Virus record (IMG/VR): IMGVR_UViG_3300040801_001158
Coordinates: 73,359-137,358 of that record
Strand: one strand, 5' to 3'
Length of the DNA: 64,000 bases
From: a virus
Lineage: Duplodnaviria; Heunggongvirae; Uroviricota; Caudoviricetes
Below, piece by piece: positions 915 to 4,620 of the stretch (its first letter is position 1; each line of letters opens with the position of its first letter). Position numbers and translations under genes: made by a program. The notes beneath the pieces are model-generated. The model was not told the DNA's origin, did no database searches, and worked only from the letters and a program-made list of their open reading frames with translations.

Positions 915-1106
915 ATGAATATAAATGAATTGAAAAATATTGGATTAGACGGAGTAAATCCAAAGGATTATCCTGATTTTGTAGATGCTTTTGTTGATTA
1001 CGCAGAGCATGCAAATGGAACTCCATTGACTGAAACAGAGCTGGATTATTTAAATGATAATTATCCTGAAGTTGCTCAAGAAAATGCTTTTGAGTCATTG
1101 ATATAA
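915..1106 (+). CDS. hypothetical acidic protein (63 aa)
   Basis: ORF directly after the promoter-leader cassette, with AGGA ribosome-binding site. Confidence 0.5.
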   Translation: MNINELKNIGLDGVNPKDYPDFVDAFVDYAEHANGTPLTETELDYLNDNYPEVAQENAFESLI

Positions 1107-1345
1107 CGAAAGTTGTATTATGTCGGAATTTTAGAATTTTAATGAACACTGTGCACCTTCAAATTTAATTAAGGAAACGTTCATTAAATAGAAACTGATC
1201 GTTTCTACCTCGCGTACAGAGGGTTCCGACCATAATATAATTTGAAGAGCTGATACCATCTTAGCCCTTAATGGTGGTTAGGATGTAAAACTAGAGGTTC
1301 GATTCCTATAAGTTGTCTTGGTGAGACTAAATTGGTTTGATTCCA
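1106..1345 (+). ncRNA. structured RNA / tRNA-like module, copy 1 of 2. It has a long closing stem tattatgtcggaat/attccgaccataata, internal hairpins and two T-arm-like hairpins.
   Basis: About 80% identical to 4378..4620, with compensatory stem changes. No ORF. Confidence 0.4.
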
Positions 1346-1390
1346 TGGCTTCGAATTATATTTATTTTACTTTAAAATGAGATTTATATT

Positions 1391-1561
1391 ATGAAATATA
1401 TTATTGTGAATTGCGATCACTATGGTGATCTTGAAAAAAGAGTTAACGAAAAACTAGAACAGGGTTACGAATTAGTTGGTGGTGTATCTGCTATATTAGC
1501 AAGCGTACATCGAAGAGATTTAGAATTTTATCAAGCAATGGTAAAAACTGAAAATAAATGA
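1391..1561 (+). CDS. hypothetical small protein (56 aa)
   Basis: ATG after ...ttatattATG; open frame. Confidence 0.3.
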   Translation: MKYIIVNCDHYGDLEKRVNEKLEQGYELVGGVSAILASVHRRDLEFYQAMVKTENK

Positions 1562-1848
1562 AATTAATTTCGAGTTTTGCAAATTCTCATTATAAATAAA
1601 ACTATAACAATAAAGGAAACAAAAAATGAATTTACGATATCCACATACACTCAACATGCAAGCTGAAGGCACGGCCTTCAGCATGCCGGCATGCTCTGGG
1701 ATACGTAGTGATATTAGATTAAATTCGCCGAAGAAAAATTGGTTGAACCTTTCATGAATAAAATGTAAAATAAAAGCATTCTCATAAAAGGTTTAATCGA
1801 AAGGTTAAACCTTTTTTAGTATTTGATGAAAAAAGTTTCATATTCCTA

Positions 1849-1877
1849 TTGACATTCTAATGACTAGATGATATAAT
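1849..1877 (+). promoter_or_regulatory. early promoter-leader cassette
   Basis: ttgacatt...gatataatagatctataaattgaaataaggaattaaattATG. Confidence 0.6.
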
Positions 1878-1908
1878 AGATCTATAAATTGAAATAAGGA
1901 ATTAAATT

Positions 1909-2178
1909 ATGTATAACGCAAACGCAACAAGAATCAACAAAAATTCGCAAATCTTTAAAATTTTGAATACTATTGCTGTAAAAAATGGTGCAACAAAATA
2001 TGAATGTCTTACTGAAGGTTTGGGTCTTGAAGGTTCTAAACAACGTTTAAGAGGTTATTATTCAGTTTGTTTCAGAGGATTATCTGATAATGGTGTTTTG
2101 AGTTATTCAAAAGAAAACTACAAGTACCATCTTACTCAATTAGGCATTCAGAGATATTTAGATGCAGCGAGTAAATAA
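1909..2178 (+). CDS. hypothetical protein (89 aa)
   Basis: ORF behind the cassette. Confidence 0.5.
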   Translation: MYNANATRINKNSQIFKILNTIAVKNGATKYECLTEGLGLEGSKQRLRGYYSVCFRGLSDNGVLSYSKENYKYHLTQLGIQRYLDAASK

Positions 2179-2191
2179 TTTAAAATAACTA

Positions 2192-2220
2192 TTGACATTC
2201 TAATCCAACCTTGATATAAT
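2192..2220 (+). promoter_or_regulatory. early promoter-leader cassette, apparently orphan or leading into the tRNA cluster
   Basis: ttgacattctaatccaaccttgatataat. Confidence 0.5.
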
Positions 2221-2440
2221 AGATACATAAATTGAGGAAAGTAATTAAATATCATTTGGCTGAACTAACGTTAAGAATGTATTTTAATGAAGAAGACTCA
2301 TGTGGTTCAATTGTTTCTTATATTGATGAATATTGTTTACAACGTGCTTTATCTTAACAGATATGAAAGAATTTAATTCAGTTGAAGAATTTAATAGAAT
2401 AATTAAGTATTACAAAAAGAAAGAAGTTAAATAAAAATTT

Positions 2441-2516
2441 GGATGCGAGGTGTAAATGGTTGCATGTCTCACTGTCTATGAGAAGGAAGCGGGTTCGGTT
2501 CCCGTCGCATCCGCCA
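2441..2516 (+). tRNA. tRNA-Asp (GTC) candidate, CCA encoded
   Basis: acceptor ggatgcg/cgcatcc, anticodon arm tctca-ctGTCta-tgaga, T-arm gcggg-ttcggtt-cccgt. Confidence 0.5.
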
Positions 2517-2592
2517 GAGTACTCTTGTTTCGTTACTACACATAGACGAGCAAGGAAAGGGGAAATGTAGTTCCCCTGAGAGTTTTAAATGT

Positions 2593-2668
2593 ACCGGTTT
2601 AGCTCAGTTGGAAGAGCATTTGATCGATAATCGAAAGGTCGCTGGTTCGAGCCCAGCAATCGGTACCA
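2593..2668 (+). tRNA. tRNA-Ile (GAT) candidate, CCA encoded
   Basis: acceptor accggtt/aatcggt, D-arm gctc-agttggaa-gagc, anticodon loop tcGATaa, T-arm gctgg-ttcgagc-ccagc. Confidence 0.45.
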
Positions 2669-2678
2669 AAATAATGAT

Positions 2679-2761: not shown

Positions 2762-2833
2762 CGGAATATAGCTCAAAGGCAGAGCGCACCGTTTGGGGCG
2801 GTGAGGCTGAGATTTCGAAATTCTCTATTCCGA
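2762..2833 (+). tRNA. tRNA-Pro (TGG)
   Basis: acceptor cggaata/tattccg, anticodon arm caccg-ttTGGgg-cggtg. Confidence 0.6.
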
Positions 2834-2898
2834 TCAAGTTTATCGTGGGCTTTAATAATTTATATATAGTATATACTAAATAAAAAAGTTAAAACTAA

Positions 2899-3558
2899 AT
2901 GAATTATAAAAAGCATTACGATCTTTTAATTGAAAGAGGTCAAAACAGATTATTAGATAGTTATACTGAAAATCACCATATTGTTCCTAGATGTATGGGA
3001 GGTGGTGATAATAAAGAAAATCTGGTTAGATTAACTCCTGAAGAACATTATGTTGCTCATCAGCTGTTATGTAAAATGTATCCAGACAATATGGGAATAG
3101 CAAAAGCCGTTCTTATGATGACAGTAAAAAGAACTAATAACAAAATATATGGTTGGGTTCGTAAAAGACACTCAATAGCAATGAGTCAAGATCAAACAGG
3201 AGAAGGAAACTCTCAATTTGGTACAAGATGGATACACAATACTATTTTAGAACAATCTAAAAAAATAAAGAAAAATGCTATTTTACCAGAAAATTGGATT
3301 GAAGGCAGAAAAATTAATTTTGGCATGTCTTTTTCTGAAAAGAAAAAAGACAATAATAGAAAAAAGAAAATACAGAAAGAAATTGATGAAATAAAAGAAT
3401 TGAAACCTTTATATGAAAGATATGTAAATGGTGAAGCTTTACAAAATATAGCAAATGATTATAAGTATTCTTATGTTTCTCTTTACAACAAAATGGTAAA
3501 ACATTTTGATTTTGTTAAGAAAGACACAGGAAGAGGAAATACGGGTTCGAAGCATTAA
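2899..3558 (+). CDS. HNH homing endonuclease, 219 aa, with C-terminal DNA-binding module
   Basis: Motif HHIVPRCMGGGDNKENLVRLTPEEHYVAH. C-terminal NSQFGTRWIHN...WIEGRK is shared with the decayed GIY-YIG gene at 9145. Confidence 0.65.
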   Translation: MNYKKHYDLLIERGQNRLLDSYTENHHIVPRCMGGGDNKENLVRLTPEEHYVAHQLLCKMYPDNMGIAKAVLMMTVKRTNNKIYGWVRKRHSIAMSQDQTGEGNSQFGTRWIHNTILEQSKKIKKNAILPENWIEGRKINFGMSFSEKKKDNNRKKKIQKEIDEIKELKPLYERYVNGEALQNIANDYKYSYVSLYNKMVKHFDFVKKDTGRGNTGSKH

Positions 3559-3617
3559 TGGTGATGCAGTAGACTTTTAATCTACTGAAGGAGGATCGTT
3601 ACCTCCCGGACCCACCA
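3543..3617 (+). tRNA. tRNA-Lys (TTT), CCA encoded. It overlaps the last 16 nt of the HNH ORF.
   Basis: acceptor gggttcg/cggaccc, D-arm gcat-taatggtg-atgc, anticodon arm gtaga-ctTTTaa-tctac, unusual T-loop atcgtta. Confidence 0.5.
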
Positions 3618-3625
3618 AAATTAAT

Positions 3626-3701
3626 GCGGGTATGGTGTTTAACGGTAGCATACAAGGTTTCCACCCTTTAGGTACCAGTTCGAATCTGGTTACCCGTTCC
3701 A
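3626..3701 (+). tRNA. tRNA-Gly (TCC), CCA encoded
   Basis: acceptor gcgggta/tacccgt, loop ttTCCac, T-arm accag-ttcgaat-ctggt. Confidence 0.55.
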
Positions 3702-3708
3702 ATTTTTT

Positions 3709-3786
3709 GTCCCTATCGTCTAGATTGGCTTAGGACGCCGCCCTTTCAAGGCGGAAACTCCGGTTCGAAACCGGATGGGGACGCCA
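3709..3786 (+). tRNA. tRNA-Glu (TTC), CCA encoded
   Basis: acceptor gtcccta/tggggac, anticodon arm ccgcc-ctTTCaa-ggcgg, T-arm tccgg-ttcgaaa-ccgga. Confidence 0.6.
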
Positions 3787-3854
3787 TTTTAAGGATTTAA
3801 TATGTTTTATTTTGAATTAGATATCCGATCATGTAATTACATGGGGATATCAAA

Positions 3855-4133
3855 ATGCATAGAAAAAGAAGAAGTAATAAAAATTGGGTTAGACTTTTAA
3901 AACAAGTAAAAGAATCTAATAGAGAGTATATAGAATTTGGTGTTAAACGTGTAAGGCCAAAAACTCATTATAACGTTTTAAAAGAAGGTATATGGTGGGA
4001 TTATCCATATAGCAGTAAACCACAACGTTCTTGGAAGTCATTTAGGAATACGCAATATAAGGCTAAACGTAATGAGTTCAAAAACTTGTGGACAATGTCA
4101 GTTATTTGTGAGAATAAAAAGTTTCAAAGGTAA
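3855..4133 (+). CDS. hypothetical basic protein (92 aa)
   Basis: ORF with ribosome-binding site; overlaps the next small ORF. Confidence 0.4.
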   Translation: MHRKRRSNKNWVRLLKQVKESNREYIEFGVKRVRPKTHYNVLKEGIWWDYPYSSKPQRSWKSFRNTQYKAKRNEFKNLWTMSVICENKKFQR

Positions 4134-4260
4134 ACATACTGGTATTTGCGATAAGTATGATTATAATTTATTAGCTGATTGCACACATGCTAAATATTGT
4201 AATCATTTAAATCAAAAAAGTTTGATAGAAGAAAAGATTAAATTTATGAAGTGGCGGTAG
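4072..4260 (+). CDS. hypothetical Cys-rich small protein (62 aa)
   Basis: ORF containing CGQC...C...C. Confidence 0.3.
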   Translation: MSSKTCGQCQLFVRIKSFKGKHTGICDKYDYNLLADCTHAKYCNHLNQKSLIEEKIKFMKWR

Positions 4261-4301
4261 TAGCACCCCACGTTAAAAACTGAAGCATCCAAACAGAATT
4301 T

Positions 4302-4376
4302 GGGGATATAGTATAATTGGGAATACACTGGATTTGCATTCCAGAGTTTGCGGTTCGATCCCGCATATCTCCACCA
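4302..4376 (+). tRNA. tRNA-Ala (TGC), CCA encoded
   Basis: acceptor ggggata/tatctcc, D-arm gtat-aattggga-atac, anticodon arm ctgga-ttTGCat-tccag, T-arm tgcgg-ttcgatc-ccgca. Confidence 0.7.
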
Positions 4377-4377
4377 A

Positions 4378-4620
4378 AGTTATATTATGTCGGAATTTGA
4401 ATAAACATTGTGCACCTCCACATTTAATAGAGGAATCGTTTATTCAATAGGAACTGATCATTTCTACCTCGTGCATAGAGGATTCCGACCATAATATAAT
4501 TTAAAGAGCTGGAAGCCATCTCAACTAGCCGGCAGGGATGTAAAATACGGGGTTCGATTCCTCAATCGTCTTGGTGACTCAGTGGTTCGATTCCACGTCT
4601 TTAAGTTATATTTTCAAATA
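4378..4620 (+). ncRNA. structured RNA / tRNA-like module, copy 2 of 2
   Basis: Paralogue of 1106..1345 with compensatory changes: gaataaac/gtttattc here versus aatgaac/gttcatt in copy 1. Confidence 0.4.

What the first reader, a model, noticed from the sequence alone, without database searches (positions are those of the whole stretch)
1106..4620. Two diverged copies of a ~240-nt structured RNA module with compensatory base changes
Regions 1106-1345 and 4378-4620 are about 80% identical and share an architecture. A long closing helix tattatgtcggaat/attccgaccataata encloses hairpins. At least one internal stem differs by compensatory changes (aatgaac/gttcatt versus gaataaac/gtttattc). Two T-arm-like hairpins (GGTTCGATTCC) follow. 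They have no ORFs and sit in the tRNA clusters. Covariation implies selection on RNA structure. They may be analogues of the T4 stable species 1/2 RNAs, or a novel tRNA-derived regulatory RNA.
Basis: seen in the sequence. Interest (0 to 1): 0.65.

Follow-up and report, generated by a model that had tools for sequence, protein, structure and literature searches.

The report
Duplicated pair of phage tRNA-like RNAs
A novel T4-like phage carries two copies of a pair of small folded RNA genes derived from tRNAs, and the second gene belongs to an unannotated, apparently phage-only family of tRNA look-alikes with two T-loops whose function is unknown.

Summary
Copy A is 1109-1355 and copy B is 4377-4605, on the + strand of a novel T4-like myovirus.

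Each "module" is two adjacent RNA genes.

- **Part 1** (about 130 nt) has a 20-bp closing helix with a bulged C around a four-way junction. The copies differ at 17 positions; 9 lie in stems and none breaks a pair (P about 2e-5). I found no homologue outside this phage.
- **Part 2** (105-114 nt) is tRNA-shaped. It has an acceptor helix, a hairpin, a short hairpin capped by a T-loop (T1), a small hairpin with a UUGGU loop (V) and a true T-arm (T2) beside the acceptor 3' strand.

The T1-V-T2 core recurs, with covariation, in 14 other viral or metagenomic contigs, mostly inside phage tRNA clusters. It was absent from all 120 bacterial-genome pattern hits. Rfam has no match, even at E<=10.

The modules are not detectably homologous to T4 species 1/2 RNAs, though position and layout are analogous.

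The most likely reading is stable, non-decoding tRNA mimics cut out of tRNA-operon transcripts. Their target is unknown. They are a new variant of a known kind, of moderate interest.

The parts
856..884 (+). Consensus sigma-70-type promoter (TTGACA-17-TATAAT, 12/12) heading the operon ORF 915-1106 / copy A / ORF 1391-1561 / ORF 1626-1757
   Evidence: It is one of nine copies of a 79-nt promoter-containing repeat (D1).
1109..1243 (+). Copy A, part 1: structured RNA of about 133 nt. A 20-bp closing helix (1110-1128 with 1223-1243, bulged C1230) encloses three hairpins: 1138-1188 (containing an inner hairpin at 1156-1174), 1189-1207 and 1208-1222. It carries an 8-nt tandem duplication (GAATTTTA) at 1126-1141 relative to copy B.
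   Evidence: MFE -40.3 kcal/mol, z = -5.5. All 44 of 44 pairs are kept in both copies. It starts 3 nt after the stop codon of ORF 915-1106.
1242..1355 (+). Copy A, part 2: tRNA-like RNA of 114 nt. Its elements are: acceptor-like helix 1242-1248 with 1348-1354; hairpin H1 1257-1285; T1 hairpin 1294-1310 (box GGTTCGATTCC at 1296-1306); V hairpin GUC-UUGGU-GAG 1315-1325; T2 arm 1331-1347 (GGTTTGATTCC); position 73 = A1355. No CCA is encoded.
   Evidence: model R2, 129.7 bits. Four of 28 model pairs are broken in this copy.
1786..1815 (+). Intrinsic-terminator-like hairpin ending the operon that contains copy A
   Evidence: 13-bp stem followed by a T run.
2192..2220 (+). Consensus promoter (12/12) upstream of the tRNA operon that ends with tRNA-Ala, copy B and ORF 4639-5139
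   Evidence: No terminator-like site was found on the + strand between it and copy B.
4302..4376 (+). tRNA-Ala(UGC) with encoded CCA. Copy B part 1 begins at the next base.
4377..4502 (+). Copy B, part 1: 126 nt. The closing helix (4377-4396 with 4482-4502, bulged C4489/4490) leads into a perfect four-way junction. Hairpins lie at 4397-4447, 4448-4466 and 4467-4481.
   Evidence: MFE -36.4 kcal/mol, z = -5.3. Model R1 scores 153 bits.
4501..4605 (+). Copy B, part 2: tRNA-like RNA of 105 nt. Its elements are: acceptor 4501-4507 with 4598-4604 (7 Watson-Crick pairs); H1 4517-4540; T1 4549-4563 (box at 4551-4561); V hairpin GUC-UUGGU-GAC 4568-4578; T2 4581-4597 (GGTTCGATTCC); position 73 = G4605. 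No CCA is encoded. This is the better-preserved copy.
   Evidence: (117 bits).

Best explanation
Each 'module' is a tandem of two genes for small, stable, non-coding RNAs that descend from tRNA genes. The pair was duplicated as a unit within the tRNA region of a novel T4-like phage.

**Transcription and processing.** Both copies are transcribed from strong consensus promoters as part of tRNA/small-ORF operons. This follows from gene order and strand. They are probably cut out by the host tRNA-processing machinery. RNase P would cleave at the 5' end of part 2, which has a 12-layer acceptor/T-arm stack. That cut would also create the 3' end of part 1. All of this is inferred.

**Part 2.** It is a non-decoding tRNA mimic and belongs to a phage-specific family. 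The order of its arms matches that of a long-variable-arm (class II) tRNA. However, the anticodon-arm position is taken by a short hairpin capped with a T-loop (T1), and the variable-arm position by a short hairpin capped with a D-loop-like UUGGU loop (V). Together with a GG-containing 5' hairpin and the true T-arm (T2), the RNA offers two T-loop/GG-loop pairs, that is, two potential 'tRNA elbows'.

**Most likely function (inference).** The RNA imitates tRNA shape towards a tRNA-binding factor, acting as a decoy, sponge or scaffold. Candidates are a tRNA-targeting host defence enzyme or a tRNA-processing or modification enzyme. It is not a translational adaptor.

**Part 1.** It is a lineage-specific companion RNA: a four-way junction closed by a 20-bp helix. 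Its fold is under purifying selection, and its partner is unknown.
For: **Paralogy and RNA-level selection**
- Part 1 has 9 stem substitutions and none disrupts a pair. Three are double compensatory and three are A-U/G-U switches. P is about 2e-5.
- The G-U pairs are valid only on the + strand. Copy A folds better on + than on - (-40.3 versus -32.8 kcal/mol).

**Transcription context**
- There are 12/12 promoters on the + strand at 856-884 and 2192-2220, and a terminator at 1786-1815.
- All neighbouring tRNAs and ORFs are on the + strand.

**tRNA-like features of part 2**
- A 7-bp acceptor-like helix abuts a T-arm.

**Family**
- Model R2 and motif scans recover L182/L262/L263/L272, L271, L266, L265, L268, L277, L269, L270, L291, L302, L292, L293, L298 and L301.
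- In 16 sequences, the first base pair not fixed by the search pattern is kept in 16/16 for T1 (5 pair types), 14/16 for V (4 Watson-Crick types) and 16/16 for T2. Each has P<0.0005 against shuffling.
- When only V and T2 were required, 9 of 29 viral hits carried a T-loop-type T1. None of 120 bacterial or archaeal genome hits did.
- 11 of 15 loci are inside tRNA clusters, on the tRNA strand.

**Not a decoding tRNA**
- No tRNA call by ARAGORN at default settings or by Rfam, even at E<=10.
- The T1 loop reads UUCRAHU. The position equivalent to tRNA 37 is U, C or A, which fits a T-loop and not an anticodon loop.
- The phage already has tRNA-Ser(UGA) and tRNA-Ser(GCU).

**Precedent**
- T4 rnaD/rnaC are tandem stable RNAs next to tRNA-Arg, function unknown (PMC3014915).
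- Bacterial Y RNAs mimic tRNA and can be cut by RNase P (PMC4201824).
Against: - There is no expression or processing data.
- Part 1 has no homologue elsewhere. About 1.5 Mb of phage loci were searched, including the nearest relatives found. Its support therefore rests on two paralogues that could also be homogenised by gene conversion.
- Part 2 is not thermodynamically distinctive (z = -0.9 and -0.1).
- Copy A of part 2 has four broken pairs and a C-to-U change at the T2 position equivalent to C56. This fits relaxed constraint on one copy.
- Most family members were found with patterns that fixed the T-loop boxes and the UCUUGGUGA motif. Conservation of those motifs is therefore partly circular.
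- Several of the 16 sequences are close relatives of one another.
- The nearest relatives of this phage lack both parts, so the RNAs are dispensable for the lineage.
- No conserved neighbouring protein points to a partner.
- The decoy function is pure inference.
Confidence: 0.6

Rival explanations
1. They are cis-acting processing and stability signals ('tRNA punctuation'). The tRNA-like folds exist mainly so that RNase P, RNase III or RNase E cut the polycistronic transcript at defined points. Their role would be to define or protect the ends of the flanking mRNAs (ORF 915-1106, ORF 1391-1561, ORF 4639-5139) and of tRNA-Ala, not to act in trans.
For: - Both copies sit within about 3-35 nt of flanking genes, with no promoter or terminator of their own.
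- Part 1 abuts a stop codon in copy A and the CCA end of tRNA-Ala in copy B.
- Its 20-bp helix is long enough to be an RNase III-type substrate (established knowledge of RNase III; not tested here).
- Part 2 has the acceptor/T-arm stack that RNase P measures.
Against: - A processing signal does not need the conserved T1 T-loop hairpin or the UUGGU hairpin. Yet both are kept across unrelated phages.
- Ordinary tRNAs already punctuate these operons.
- The internal hairpins of part 1 are preserved by compensatory changes.
Confidence: 0.18
2. They are decaying relics: a duplicated pair of degenerate tRNA genes with no present function.
For: - Copy A part 2 has 4 broken pairs, a U-U mismatch and a mutated T-loop.
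- Part 2 has no thermodynamic signal.
- The modules are absent from the closest relatives.
- Phage tRNA regions are full of odd tRNA-like genes.
Against: - Part 1 has 9 of 9 stem substitutions that preserve pairing (P about 2e-5).
- In part 1 paired sites change at half the rate of unpaired ones (9/88 versus 8/38).
- The T1-V-T2 architecture recurs with covariation in distant phage contigs. Independent decay would not produce this.
Confidence: 0.08
3. Part 2 is a working, chargeable class II tRNA (a tRNA-Ser with anticodon CGA, or an allo-tRNA-like adaptor) with an unusual anticodon arm.
For: - The arm order matches a long-variable-arm tRNA.
- Read as an anticodon loop, T1 gives CGA (Ser) or CAA (Leu) in family members. 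Both are class II amino acids.
- L182 has an 8/4 acceptor/T-stem split like the phage (8/4) tRNA-Ser described in PMC5389517.
- SerRS ignores the anticodon (PMC5389517).
- Six of 28 tRNA genes here also lack an encoded CCA.
Against: - Position 37 would be U, C or A, and the loop fits the T-loop consensus UUCRANY instead.
- T1 stems are often only 3-4 bp.
- H1 is not a D-arm in the window copies.
- There is no Rfam tRNA or tRNA-Sec hit even at E<=10.
- The phage already encodes tRNA-Ser(UGA), which covers UCN codons.
Confidence: 0.05
4. They are Y-RNA-like components of a ribonucleoprotein with a Ro60-like protein. Part 1 would supply a protein-binding bulged stem and part 2 the tRNA-like effector domain.
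For: - Bacterial and phage Y RNAs combine a long terminal stem with a tRNA-like domain, occur in tandem, and can be RNase P substrates (PMC4201824).
- The part 1 stem has a bulged C and a 5' strand GUCGGAA, reminiscent of the Ro-contact motifs GGUCCGA / GNCGAA.
- In six fetched loci, a DUF2828/DUF7788 protein (vWA-type) lies on the same strand 0.2-5 kb from a double-T-loop tRNA-like element.
Against: - No TROVE or DUF2828 gene is in the 64-kb window.
- No Rfam Y-RNA-type hit.
- GUCGGAA does not fit GNCGAAN0-1G.
- In Y RNAs the tRNA-like domain is nested inside the stem, not placed beside it.
- That DUF2828 is Ro60-like is my reading of its architecture, not a tested result (PDB sequence search empty).
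Confidence: 0.07
5. It is a DNA-level element, such as a recombination or homing site or an origin-type hairpin, rather than an RNA.
For: - Homing endonuclease genes are interspersed in the region (HNH-like ORF 2899-3558, DUF559 ORF 5496-5957).
- The longest identical blocks between the copies are the two strands of the closing helix.
- Copy B folds equally well on either strand.
Against: - G-U pairs and A-U/G-U switches are tolerated only on the + strand.
- T-loop and acceptor features are RNA motifs.
- Family members always share the strand of the tRNA genes.
Confidence: 0.02

Closest known systems
Phage T4 stable RNAs, species 1 (rnaC, 139 nt) and species 2 (rnaD, 119 nt)
   Same: - A T4-type phage.
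- Two small RNA genes in tandem in the tRNA region, directly 3' of a tRNA gene.
- Species 1 folds with a terminal helix, long hairpins and a GGUUCGAAUCC T-arm next to the 3' strand, like part 2.
- Function unknown (PMC3014915).
   Different: - No sequence or covariance-model similarity to part 1 or part 2.
- T4 species 1 has one T-loop and no UUGGU hairpin.
- T4 species 2 is not a four-way junction with a 20-bp helix.
- The window has the pair twice.
allo-tRNAs / (8/4) tRNA-Ser of phage tRNA clusters (Mukai et al., PMC5389517)
   Same: - Non-canonical class II-like tRNAs with a variable arm, found in tRNA clusters of uncultured phages.
- The family member L182 has an 8-bp acceptor plus a 4-bp T stem.
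- Some allo-tRNAs are proposed to be non-translating regulatory RNAs with five-stem junctions.
   Different: - allo-tRNAs keep a regular (long) anticodon stem-loop with real anticodons, and a long D-stem with a tetraloop.
- Here the anticodon position holds a T-loop hairpin and the variable arm a UUGGU pentaloop.
- There is no Rfam tRNA or tRNA-Sec score.
Bacterial/phage Y RNAs (YrlA/YrlB; PMC4201824)
   Same: - tRNA mimicry with T-arm and D-arm-like elements.
- Tandem genes processed from one precursor.
- Presence in phages.
- A long terminal stem with a bulge (part 1).
   Different: - YrlA is defined by adjacency to an Rsr/Ro60 gene and a Ro-binding motif, with the tRNA-like domain nested in the stem.
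- None of these was found here.
tmRNA tRNA-like domain / other tRNA mimics
   Same: An acceptor plus T-arm stack with a D-loop analogue and no anticodon arm, which is the layout of the V + T2 + closing helix core.
   Different: - No tag reading frame and no pseudoknots.
- No tmRNA was called in the window by ARAGORN.
- The only Rfam trace is 16.8 bits to permuted tmRNA against a gathering score of 47. It overlaps the T-arm of tRNA-Ala.

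Membership tests
Canonical tRNA (Rfam RF00005 / ARAGORN) | Cloverleaf that scores as tRNA, with a 7-nt anticodon loop carrying U33 and a purine at position 37 | tested here: not met
   - No ARAGORN call at default settings.
- No Rfam tRNA hit at E<=10 for 1000-4700, 4370-4620 or L182 2605-2705.
- Only inconsistent partial calls appear at relaxed ARAGORN thresholds.
- The T1 loop has U, C or A at the position-37 equivalent.
T4 species 1/2 stable RNAs (rnaC/rnaD) | Tandem small RNA genes in the tRNA region of a T4-type phage, directly 3' of a tRNA gene | tested here: met
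   - The window is a T4-like myovirus.
- Copy B starts at the base after tRNA-Ala.
- T4 layout.
T4 species 1/2 stable RNAs (rnaC/rnaD) | Sequence/structure homology to T4 rnaC or rnaD | tested here: not met
   Models R1 and R2 found nothing in the T4 tRNA region L128 (E<=5 and E<=1). The models were built from only two sequences, so remote homology cannot be excluded.
T4 species 1/2 stable RNAs (rnaC/rnaD) | Accumulates as a stable RNA, excised by the tRNA-processing enzymes | not testable with these tools
   Needs RNA from infected cells.
Y RNA / YrlA | Encoded next to a Ro60/Rsr (TROVE) gene | tested here: inconclusive
   No TROVE or DUF2828 hit among the window ORFs scanned, and tblastn of a DUF2828 protein was negative. 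However, the window is 64 kb of a contig of about 137 kb.
Y RNA / YrlA | Ro-contact motif GNCGAAN0-1G (or GGUCCGA) in the 5' strand of the terminal stem, with the tRNA-like domain nested in that stem (PMC4201824) | tested here: not met
   - The part 1 5' strand reads GUCGGAA, which does not fit the motif.
- The tRNA-like unit (part 2) lies beside the stem, not inside it.
- No Rfam hit.
allo-tRNA (8/4 or 9/3; PMC5389517) | 12-bp acceptor branch split 8/4 or 9/3 | tested here: inconclusive
   - L182/L271: 8 + 4.
- Window copies: 7 bp, then a purine-purine mismatch, then 4 bp.
allo-tRNA (8/4 or 9/3; PMC5389517) | Regular long anticodon stem-loop with a usable anticodon; long D-stem with a tetraloop | tested here: not met
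   T1 is a 3-7-bp hairpin with a T-loop sequence. H1 has 6-10 bp with 9-12-nt loops in the window copies.
tmRNA | tRNA-like domain plus a tag-peptide reading frame | tested here: not met
   No tmRNA was called in the window by ARAGORN. Rfam tmRNA_permuted scores 16.8 bits against a gathering score of 47.
Proposed 'T1-V-T2' phage tRNA-like family (defined here) | Short hairpin capped by a T-loop box (GGUUCRAHUCC) | tested here: met
   Present in both window copies without having been selected for. The third pair is kept in 16/16 sequences with 5 pair types. Found in 9/29 viral hits when it was not required.
Proposed 'T1-V-T2' phage tRNA-like family (defined here) | Hairpin with a UUGGU loop closed by C-G and U-A, located 1-14 nt 5' of a true T-arm that abuts the closing helix | tested here: met
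   Both copies have it. The third V pair is kept in 14/16 with four Watson-Crick types. Closing helix. The closing helix is unclear for L291, L302, L292 and L301.
Proposed 'T1-V-T2' phage tRNA-like family (defined here) | Located in phage tRNA gene clusters on the tRNA strand; absent from cellular genomes | tested here: met
   - 11/15 loci lie within tRNA clusters.
- 0/120 genome contigs pattern hits have T1.

The most novel reading that the evidence does not exclude
Part 2 and its relatives may be a previously undescribed, phage-specific class of 'two-elbow' tRNA mimics. Each is a tRNA scaffold that presents two T-loop/GG-loop pairs. Phages with large tRNA arsenals would deploy them against a host factor that recognises tRNA shape. 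That factor could be a tRNA-targeting defence nuclease or toxin, or RNase P. Alternatively, the RNAs could act as Y-RNA-like partners of Ro60-like DUF2828 proteins. Part 1 would be a lineage-specific co-factor RNA.
Probability: 0.2. Interest if true: 0.8.

Novelty: new variant of a known kind. Interest (0 to 1): 0.55.

Why it matters
Phage tRNA clusters are now read as counter-measures against host tRNA depletion and tRNA-cleaving defences. The non-tRNA RNAs that sit in those clusters have had no assigned function for fifty years; T4 species 1 and 2 are the classic case.

This locus supplies three things:
- A clean example of such RNAs kept by selection in a distant T4 relative.
- A recognisable, searchable signature (T-loop hairpin, UUGGU hairpin, T-arm). 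It groups part 2 with elements from at least 14 unrelated viral or metagenomic contigs and is missing from Rfam.
- Concrete, cheap experiments: northern blot, RNase P assay and pull-down.

If the family proves to be a tRNA-shape decoy, it would add an RNA-based layer to phage anti-defence. If it is only a processing signal or a relic, the result is still useful for annotating phage tRNA regions. Default tRNA finders missed at least three likely tRNA genes in this window alone.

Tried and rejected
**Searches for the whole module or part 1**
- BLAST of the module and of family members against 50,697 cultured phage records found no match or only neighbouring tRNAs.
- Exact-pattern scans for part 1 in IMG/VR found nothing. 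The loose closing-helix pattern gave 119 chance hits, all rejected by blastn. Stricter patterns gave 0 hits.
- GGATGTAAAA...T-loop gave one chance hit, inside coding sequence.

**Synteny route to orthologues**
- Homologue of Nuc_deoxyribosyltransferase ORF 4639-5139 (62% identity, L122-L125): ordinary tRNAs occupy the site instead of the module.
- Homologue of ORF 915-1106 (63% identity, L425): followed by a tRNA-Arg-like start.
- Homologues of the 607-aa ORF (42-46% identity, L427-L430): tRNA clusters with no R1 or R2 hit.

**Double T-loop scan**
The collection it returned was heterogeneous: class II tRNA-like genes, a tRNA-Leu-like group L154/L214/L221, and the L137 group. Only a subset is related to part 2.

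**Other routes that led nowhere**
- The GUAAA + T1 + YTGGTGA pattern mostly returned ordinary adjacent tRNAs.
- A search for a shared neighbouring protein within +/-4 kb of family members found none.
- A PDB sequence search with the DUF2828 protein found nothing informative.

**Readings considered and rejected**
- tmRNA: one sub-threshold Rfam trace only.
- Mini-ORFs inside part 1: AUU-AAA-UAG and AUU-CAA-UAG follow an SD-like AAGGA/GAGGA. I treat this as a by-product of the hairpins.
- Minus-strand RNA.

**Not attempted**
- I could not retrieve the rest of the source contig (about 137 kb).
- I did not model the 607-aa protein.

Full report
**Setting.** The window is from a novel T4-like myovirus. 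PHROG matches cover portal, major head protein, tail sheath and terminase. The tail sheath is at most 43% identical to any cultured phage. GC content is 34%. ARAGORN finds 25 tRNA genes between 2441 and 15294, all on the + strand. Nine copies of a perfect TTGACA-17-TATAAT promoter repeat are scattered through the region. The same sequence occurs in a JGI contig of about 137 kb and in short Logan contigs that are 100% identical.

**Observation.** The two regions are paralogues, with 83% column identity, a 119-nt repeat at 86% and blastn E=9e-43.
- the closing helix;
- the compensatory stem;
- the two T-arm-like hairpins;
- no conserved ORF;
- location in the tRNA region.

The 3' borders need extending. 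Copy A is 1109-1355 and copy B is 4377-4605.

**Anatomy: two units, not one.**

*Part 1* (1109-1243; 4377-4502) folds into a 20-bp helix formed by its two ends. The helix has one bulged C and closes a four-way junction of three hairpins. In copy B no nucleotide at the junction is left unpaired.
- The fold is far more stable than shuffled sequence (z = -5.5 and -5.3).
- The copies differ at 17 aligned positions plus an 8-nt tandem duplication in A.
- Nine differences fall in the 88 paired positions. All keep pairing: three double compensatory changes and three A-U/G-U switches.
- Re-placing the same substitutions at random reaches this in about 2 of 100,000 trials.
- Paired sites changed at half the rate of unpaired ones.
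- The G-U pairs work only on the + strand, and copy A folds better on + than on -. Copy B folds equally well on both strands, so strand assignment also rests on context.

*Part 2* (1242-1355; 4501-4605) is tRNA-shaped. In order it has:
- a 7-bp acceptor-like helix;
- a hairpin H1 with a GG-containing loop;
- the conserved GUAAAA;
- a short hairpin T1 capped by GGUUCGAUUCC;
- a 3-bp hairpin V with loop UUGGU;
- a T-arm T2 that abuts the acceptor 3' strand.

No CCA is encoded. Six of 28 tRNA genes here also lack an encoded CCA, so that is not diagnostic. Part 2 is not thermodynamically unusual. Copy A is the more eroded copy, with 4 broken pairs and UUUGAUU in T2.

**Transcription.** Copy A lies in the operon promoter 856-884 / ORF 915-1106 / copy A / ORF 1391-1561 (DUF1737) / ORF 1626-1757 / terminator 1786-1815. 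Copy B follows tRNA-Ala in the operon that starts at promoter 2192-2220. Expression is therefore expected, but I could not test it.

**Known families.**
- Rfam 15 has nothing for either part at gathering score or at E<=10, even when only 251 nt are searched. The same is true for the relative L182.
- T4 rnaD and rnaC occupy the analogous position, and rnaC has a T-arm next to its terminal helix. My covariance models nevertheless find nothing in the T4 region.
- Y RNAs (PMC4201824) and allo-tRNAs (PMC5389517) share individual traits but fail defining ones. Details are in the membership table.

**Relatives of part 1.** I found none. It has no further copy in the window. It is absent from about 1.5 Mb of fetched phage loci, from exact-pattern scans of IMG/VR, and from the syntenic positions of the nearest relatives.

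**Relatives of part 2.**
- A metagenome scan for T1 box + UCUUGGUGA + GGTT gave 14 loci, about ten of them convincing.
- Model R2 scores them at 19-39 bits.
- A control IMG/VR scan required only V and T2. It still returned a T-loop-type T1 in 9 of 29 hits.
Some were tmRNA 3' domains, class II tRNAs or coding sequence.
- Parsing 16 sequences by position from each loop shows covariation. The first pair not fixed by the search patterns is kept in 16/16 (T1, five pair types), 14/16 (V) and 16/16 (T2). Shuffled expectation is about 7-8.
- Eleven of 15 loci lie inside tRNA clusters, on the tRNA strand.
- No neighbouring protein is shared.

Caveats: the loop motifs were partly imposed by the patterns, and several sequences are close relatives of one another.

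**Interpretation.** The order of arms in part 2 is that of a long-variable-arm tRNA.
- The anticodon position carries a T-loop. The loop reads UUCRAHU, with U, C or A where tRNAs have purine 37.
- The variable-arm position carries a D-loop-like GG loop.
- Most members also have a GGUA-type motif 5' of T1.
- The RNA thus offers two T-loop/GG-loop pairs. That these form two tRNA-like elbows is my inference.
- The phage already encodes tRNA-Ser(UGA) at 6325-6428, so part 2 is not needed for decoding.

I therefore favour non-decoding tRNA mimics, released by RNase P-type processing, that act on a tRNA-binding factor. That they are selected structured RNAs is well supported. The decoy mechanism is a hypothesis.

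The main rivals are cis-acting processing signals, decaying pseudogenes, a chargeable odd tRNA, and a Y-RNA-like RNP. The last is hinted at by DUF2828 genes near double-T-loop elements in six other loci, though none is present in this window.

**Verdict.** It is a tandem of two tRNA-derived structured RNAs, duplicated once. Part 2 belongs to an unannotated phage family. It is best filed as a new variant of the known kind 'phage tRNA-like stable RNAs'. Interest is moderate, and it could rise sharply if a target is found.

Noticed in passing
window 5338-5478 (+): A third strongly structured RNA lies directly downstream of consensus promoter 5280-5308. It has a 12-bp closing helix (UUUCAGGACGUC/GGCGUCCUGAAA) around four hairpins. 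The last hairpin is T-arm-like (CUCG-UUAGAUU-CGAG) and sits next to the 3' strand. MFE is -50.5 kcal/mol, z = -6.7. Neither ARAGORN nor Rfam called it.
   Followed up: partly
window 6325-6428 (+): A likely tRNA-Ser(UGA) with an odd D region, a long variable arm, G73 and CCA. Default ARAGORN and Rfam gathering missed it; ARAGORN calls it only at a relaxed threshold. A near-identical design occurs in the relative L122.
   Followed up: partly
window 8249-8428 (+): A 180-nt tRNA-Leu-like gene. Its acceptor is GCCGGUG/CGCCGGC, with a canonical Leu-type D-arm, A73 and CCA. It has a 6-nt 'anticodon' loop and an insertion of about 110 nt where the variable arm should be. ARAGORN calls it only with introns allowed.
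   Followed up: no
window 10617-10714 (+): Another tRNA-like gene with a CCA end and a T-arm reading GGUUUGAUUCC. It is called tRNA-Leu(UAA) only at a relaxed threshold. It overlaps the mechanical TTG-start ORF 10629-11327.
   Followed up: no
window 30-695 (+): A phage ORF with Flagellin_N and Flagellin_C Pfam domains. It has 221 aa as listed and ends in ...LLGLLR. This is unusual cargo for a T4-like phage.
   Followed up: no
window 12351-14174 (+); loci L427, L429, L430: A 607-aa ORF inside the tRNA region has no Pfam or PHROG match. It nevertheless has more than 680 homologues (about 40% identity, 580-615 aa) in metagenomes. In L427, L429 and L430 the homologue again sits among phage tRNA genes. 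L428 carries the homologue near RNA ligase and RtcB genes, but no tRNA genes were called there.
   Followed up: partly
loci L271, L214, L284, L195, L227, L237: DUF2828/DUF7788 proteins (about 500 aa, with a MIDAS-like DTSGSM motif) are encoded on the same strand 0.2-5 kb from double-T-loop tRNA-like elements. In L284 only one further tRNA-like gene separates the two. This may parallel the Ro60/Y-RNA pairing. No such gene is in the window.
   Followed up: partly
window 773-847 and 5198-5272 (+): A duplicated 24-codon micro-ORF (MSPDDFTEKYKEVLIPILKRLKNK versus MDPIDFCEKYKDILIPVLKRLKDK). Each copy sits directly behind a consensus promoter and ahead of the next promoter (repeat D6).
   Followed up: no
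IMG/VR loci L154, L160, L206, L214, L220, L221, L233, L241, L247: A separate group of 88-90-nt double-T-loop elements in phage tRNA arrays (..CACCUUGGUGGUGAGCAC.. GGUUCGAUUCCGUC CCUUGGCAAU GGUGGUUCGAUUCC). ARAGORN reads the L221 member as tRNA-Leu(CAG); read the same way, the L154 member would carry UAG. The perfect T1 hairpin competes with that anticodon arm.
   Followed up: partly
IMG/VR loci L137, L144, L147, L256, L261 (also L129, L226, L234, L239, L188, L192): GC-rich double-T-loop elements of about 88 nt (acceptor CCCUCUC/GAGGGGG, CACCAGUAAAU, T1, a linker with a YUGGUGA loop, T2). ARAGORN called few or no tRNA genes in the loci scanned (L137, L129, L234 and L239 none; one in L226). Rfam gathering found nothing at these elements in L137, L129, L226, L234, L239 or L188.
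   Followed up: no
locus L427 18023-18097: A relative of this phage carries a tRNA with a CUA anticodon (ARAGORN labels it 'Pyl', i.e. an amber-reading tRNA) and two PTH2 peptidyl-tRNA hydrolase genes.
   Followed up: no
window 1156-1174 and 4415-4433 (inside part 1): The inner hairpin of part 1 pairs an anti-Shine-Dalgarno-like strand (GCACCUUC in A; GCACCUCC in B, cf. the 16S 3' end CACCUCC) with a Shine-Dalgarno-like strand (UAAGGAA / AGAGGAA). That second strand matches the ribosome-binding sites used by neighbouring ORFs. Its significance is unknown.
   Followed up: no
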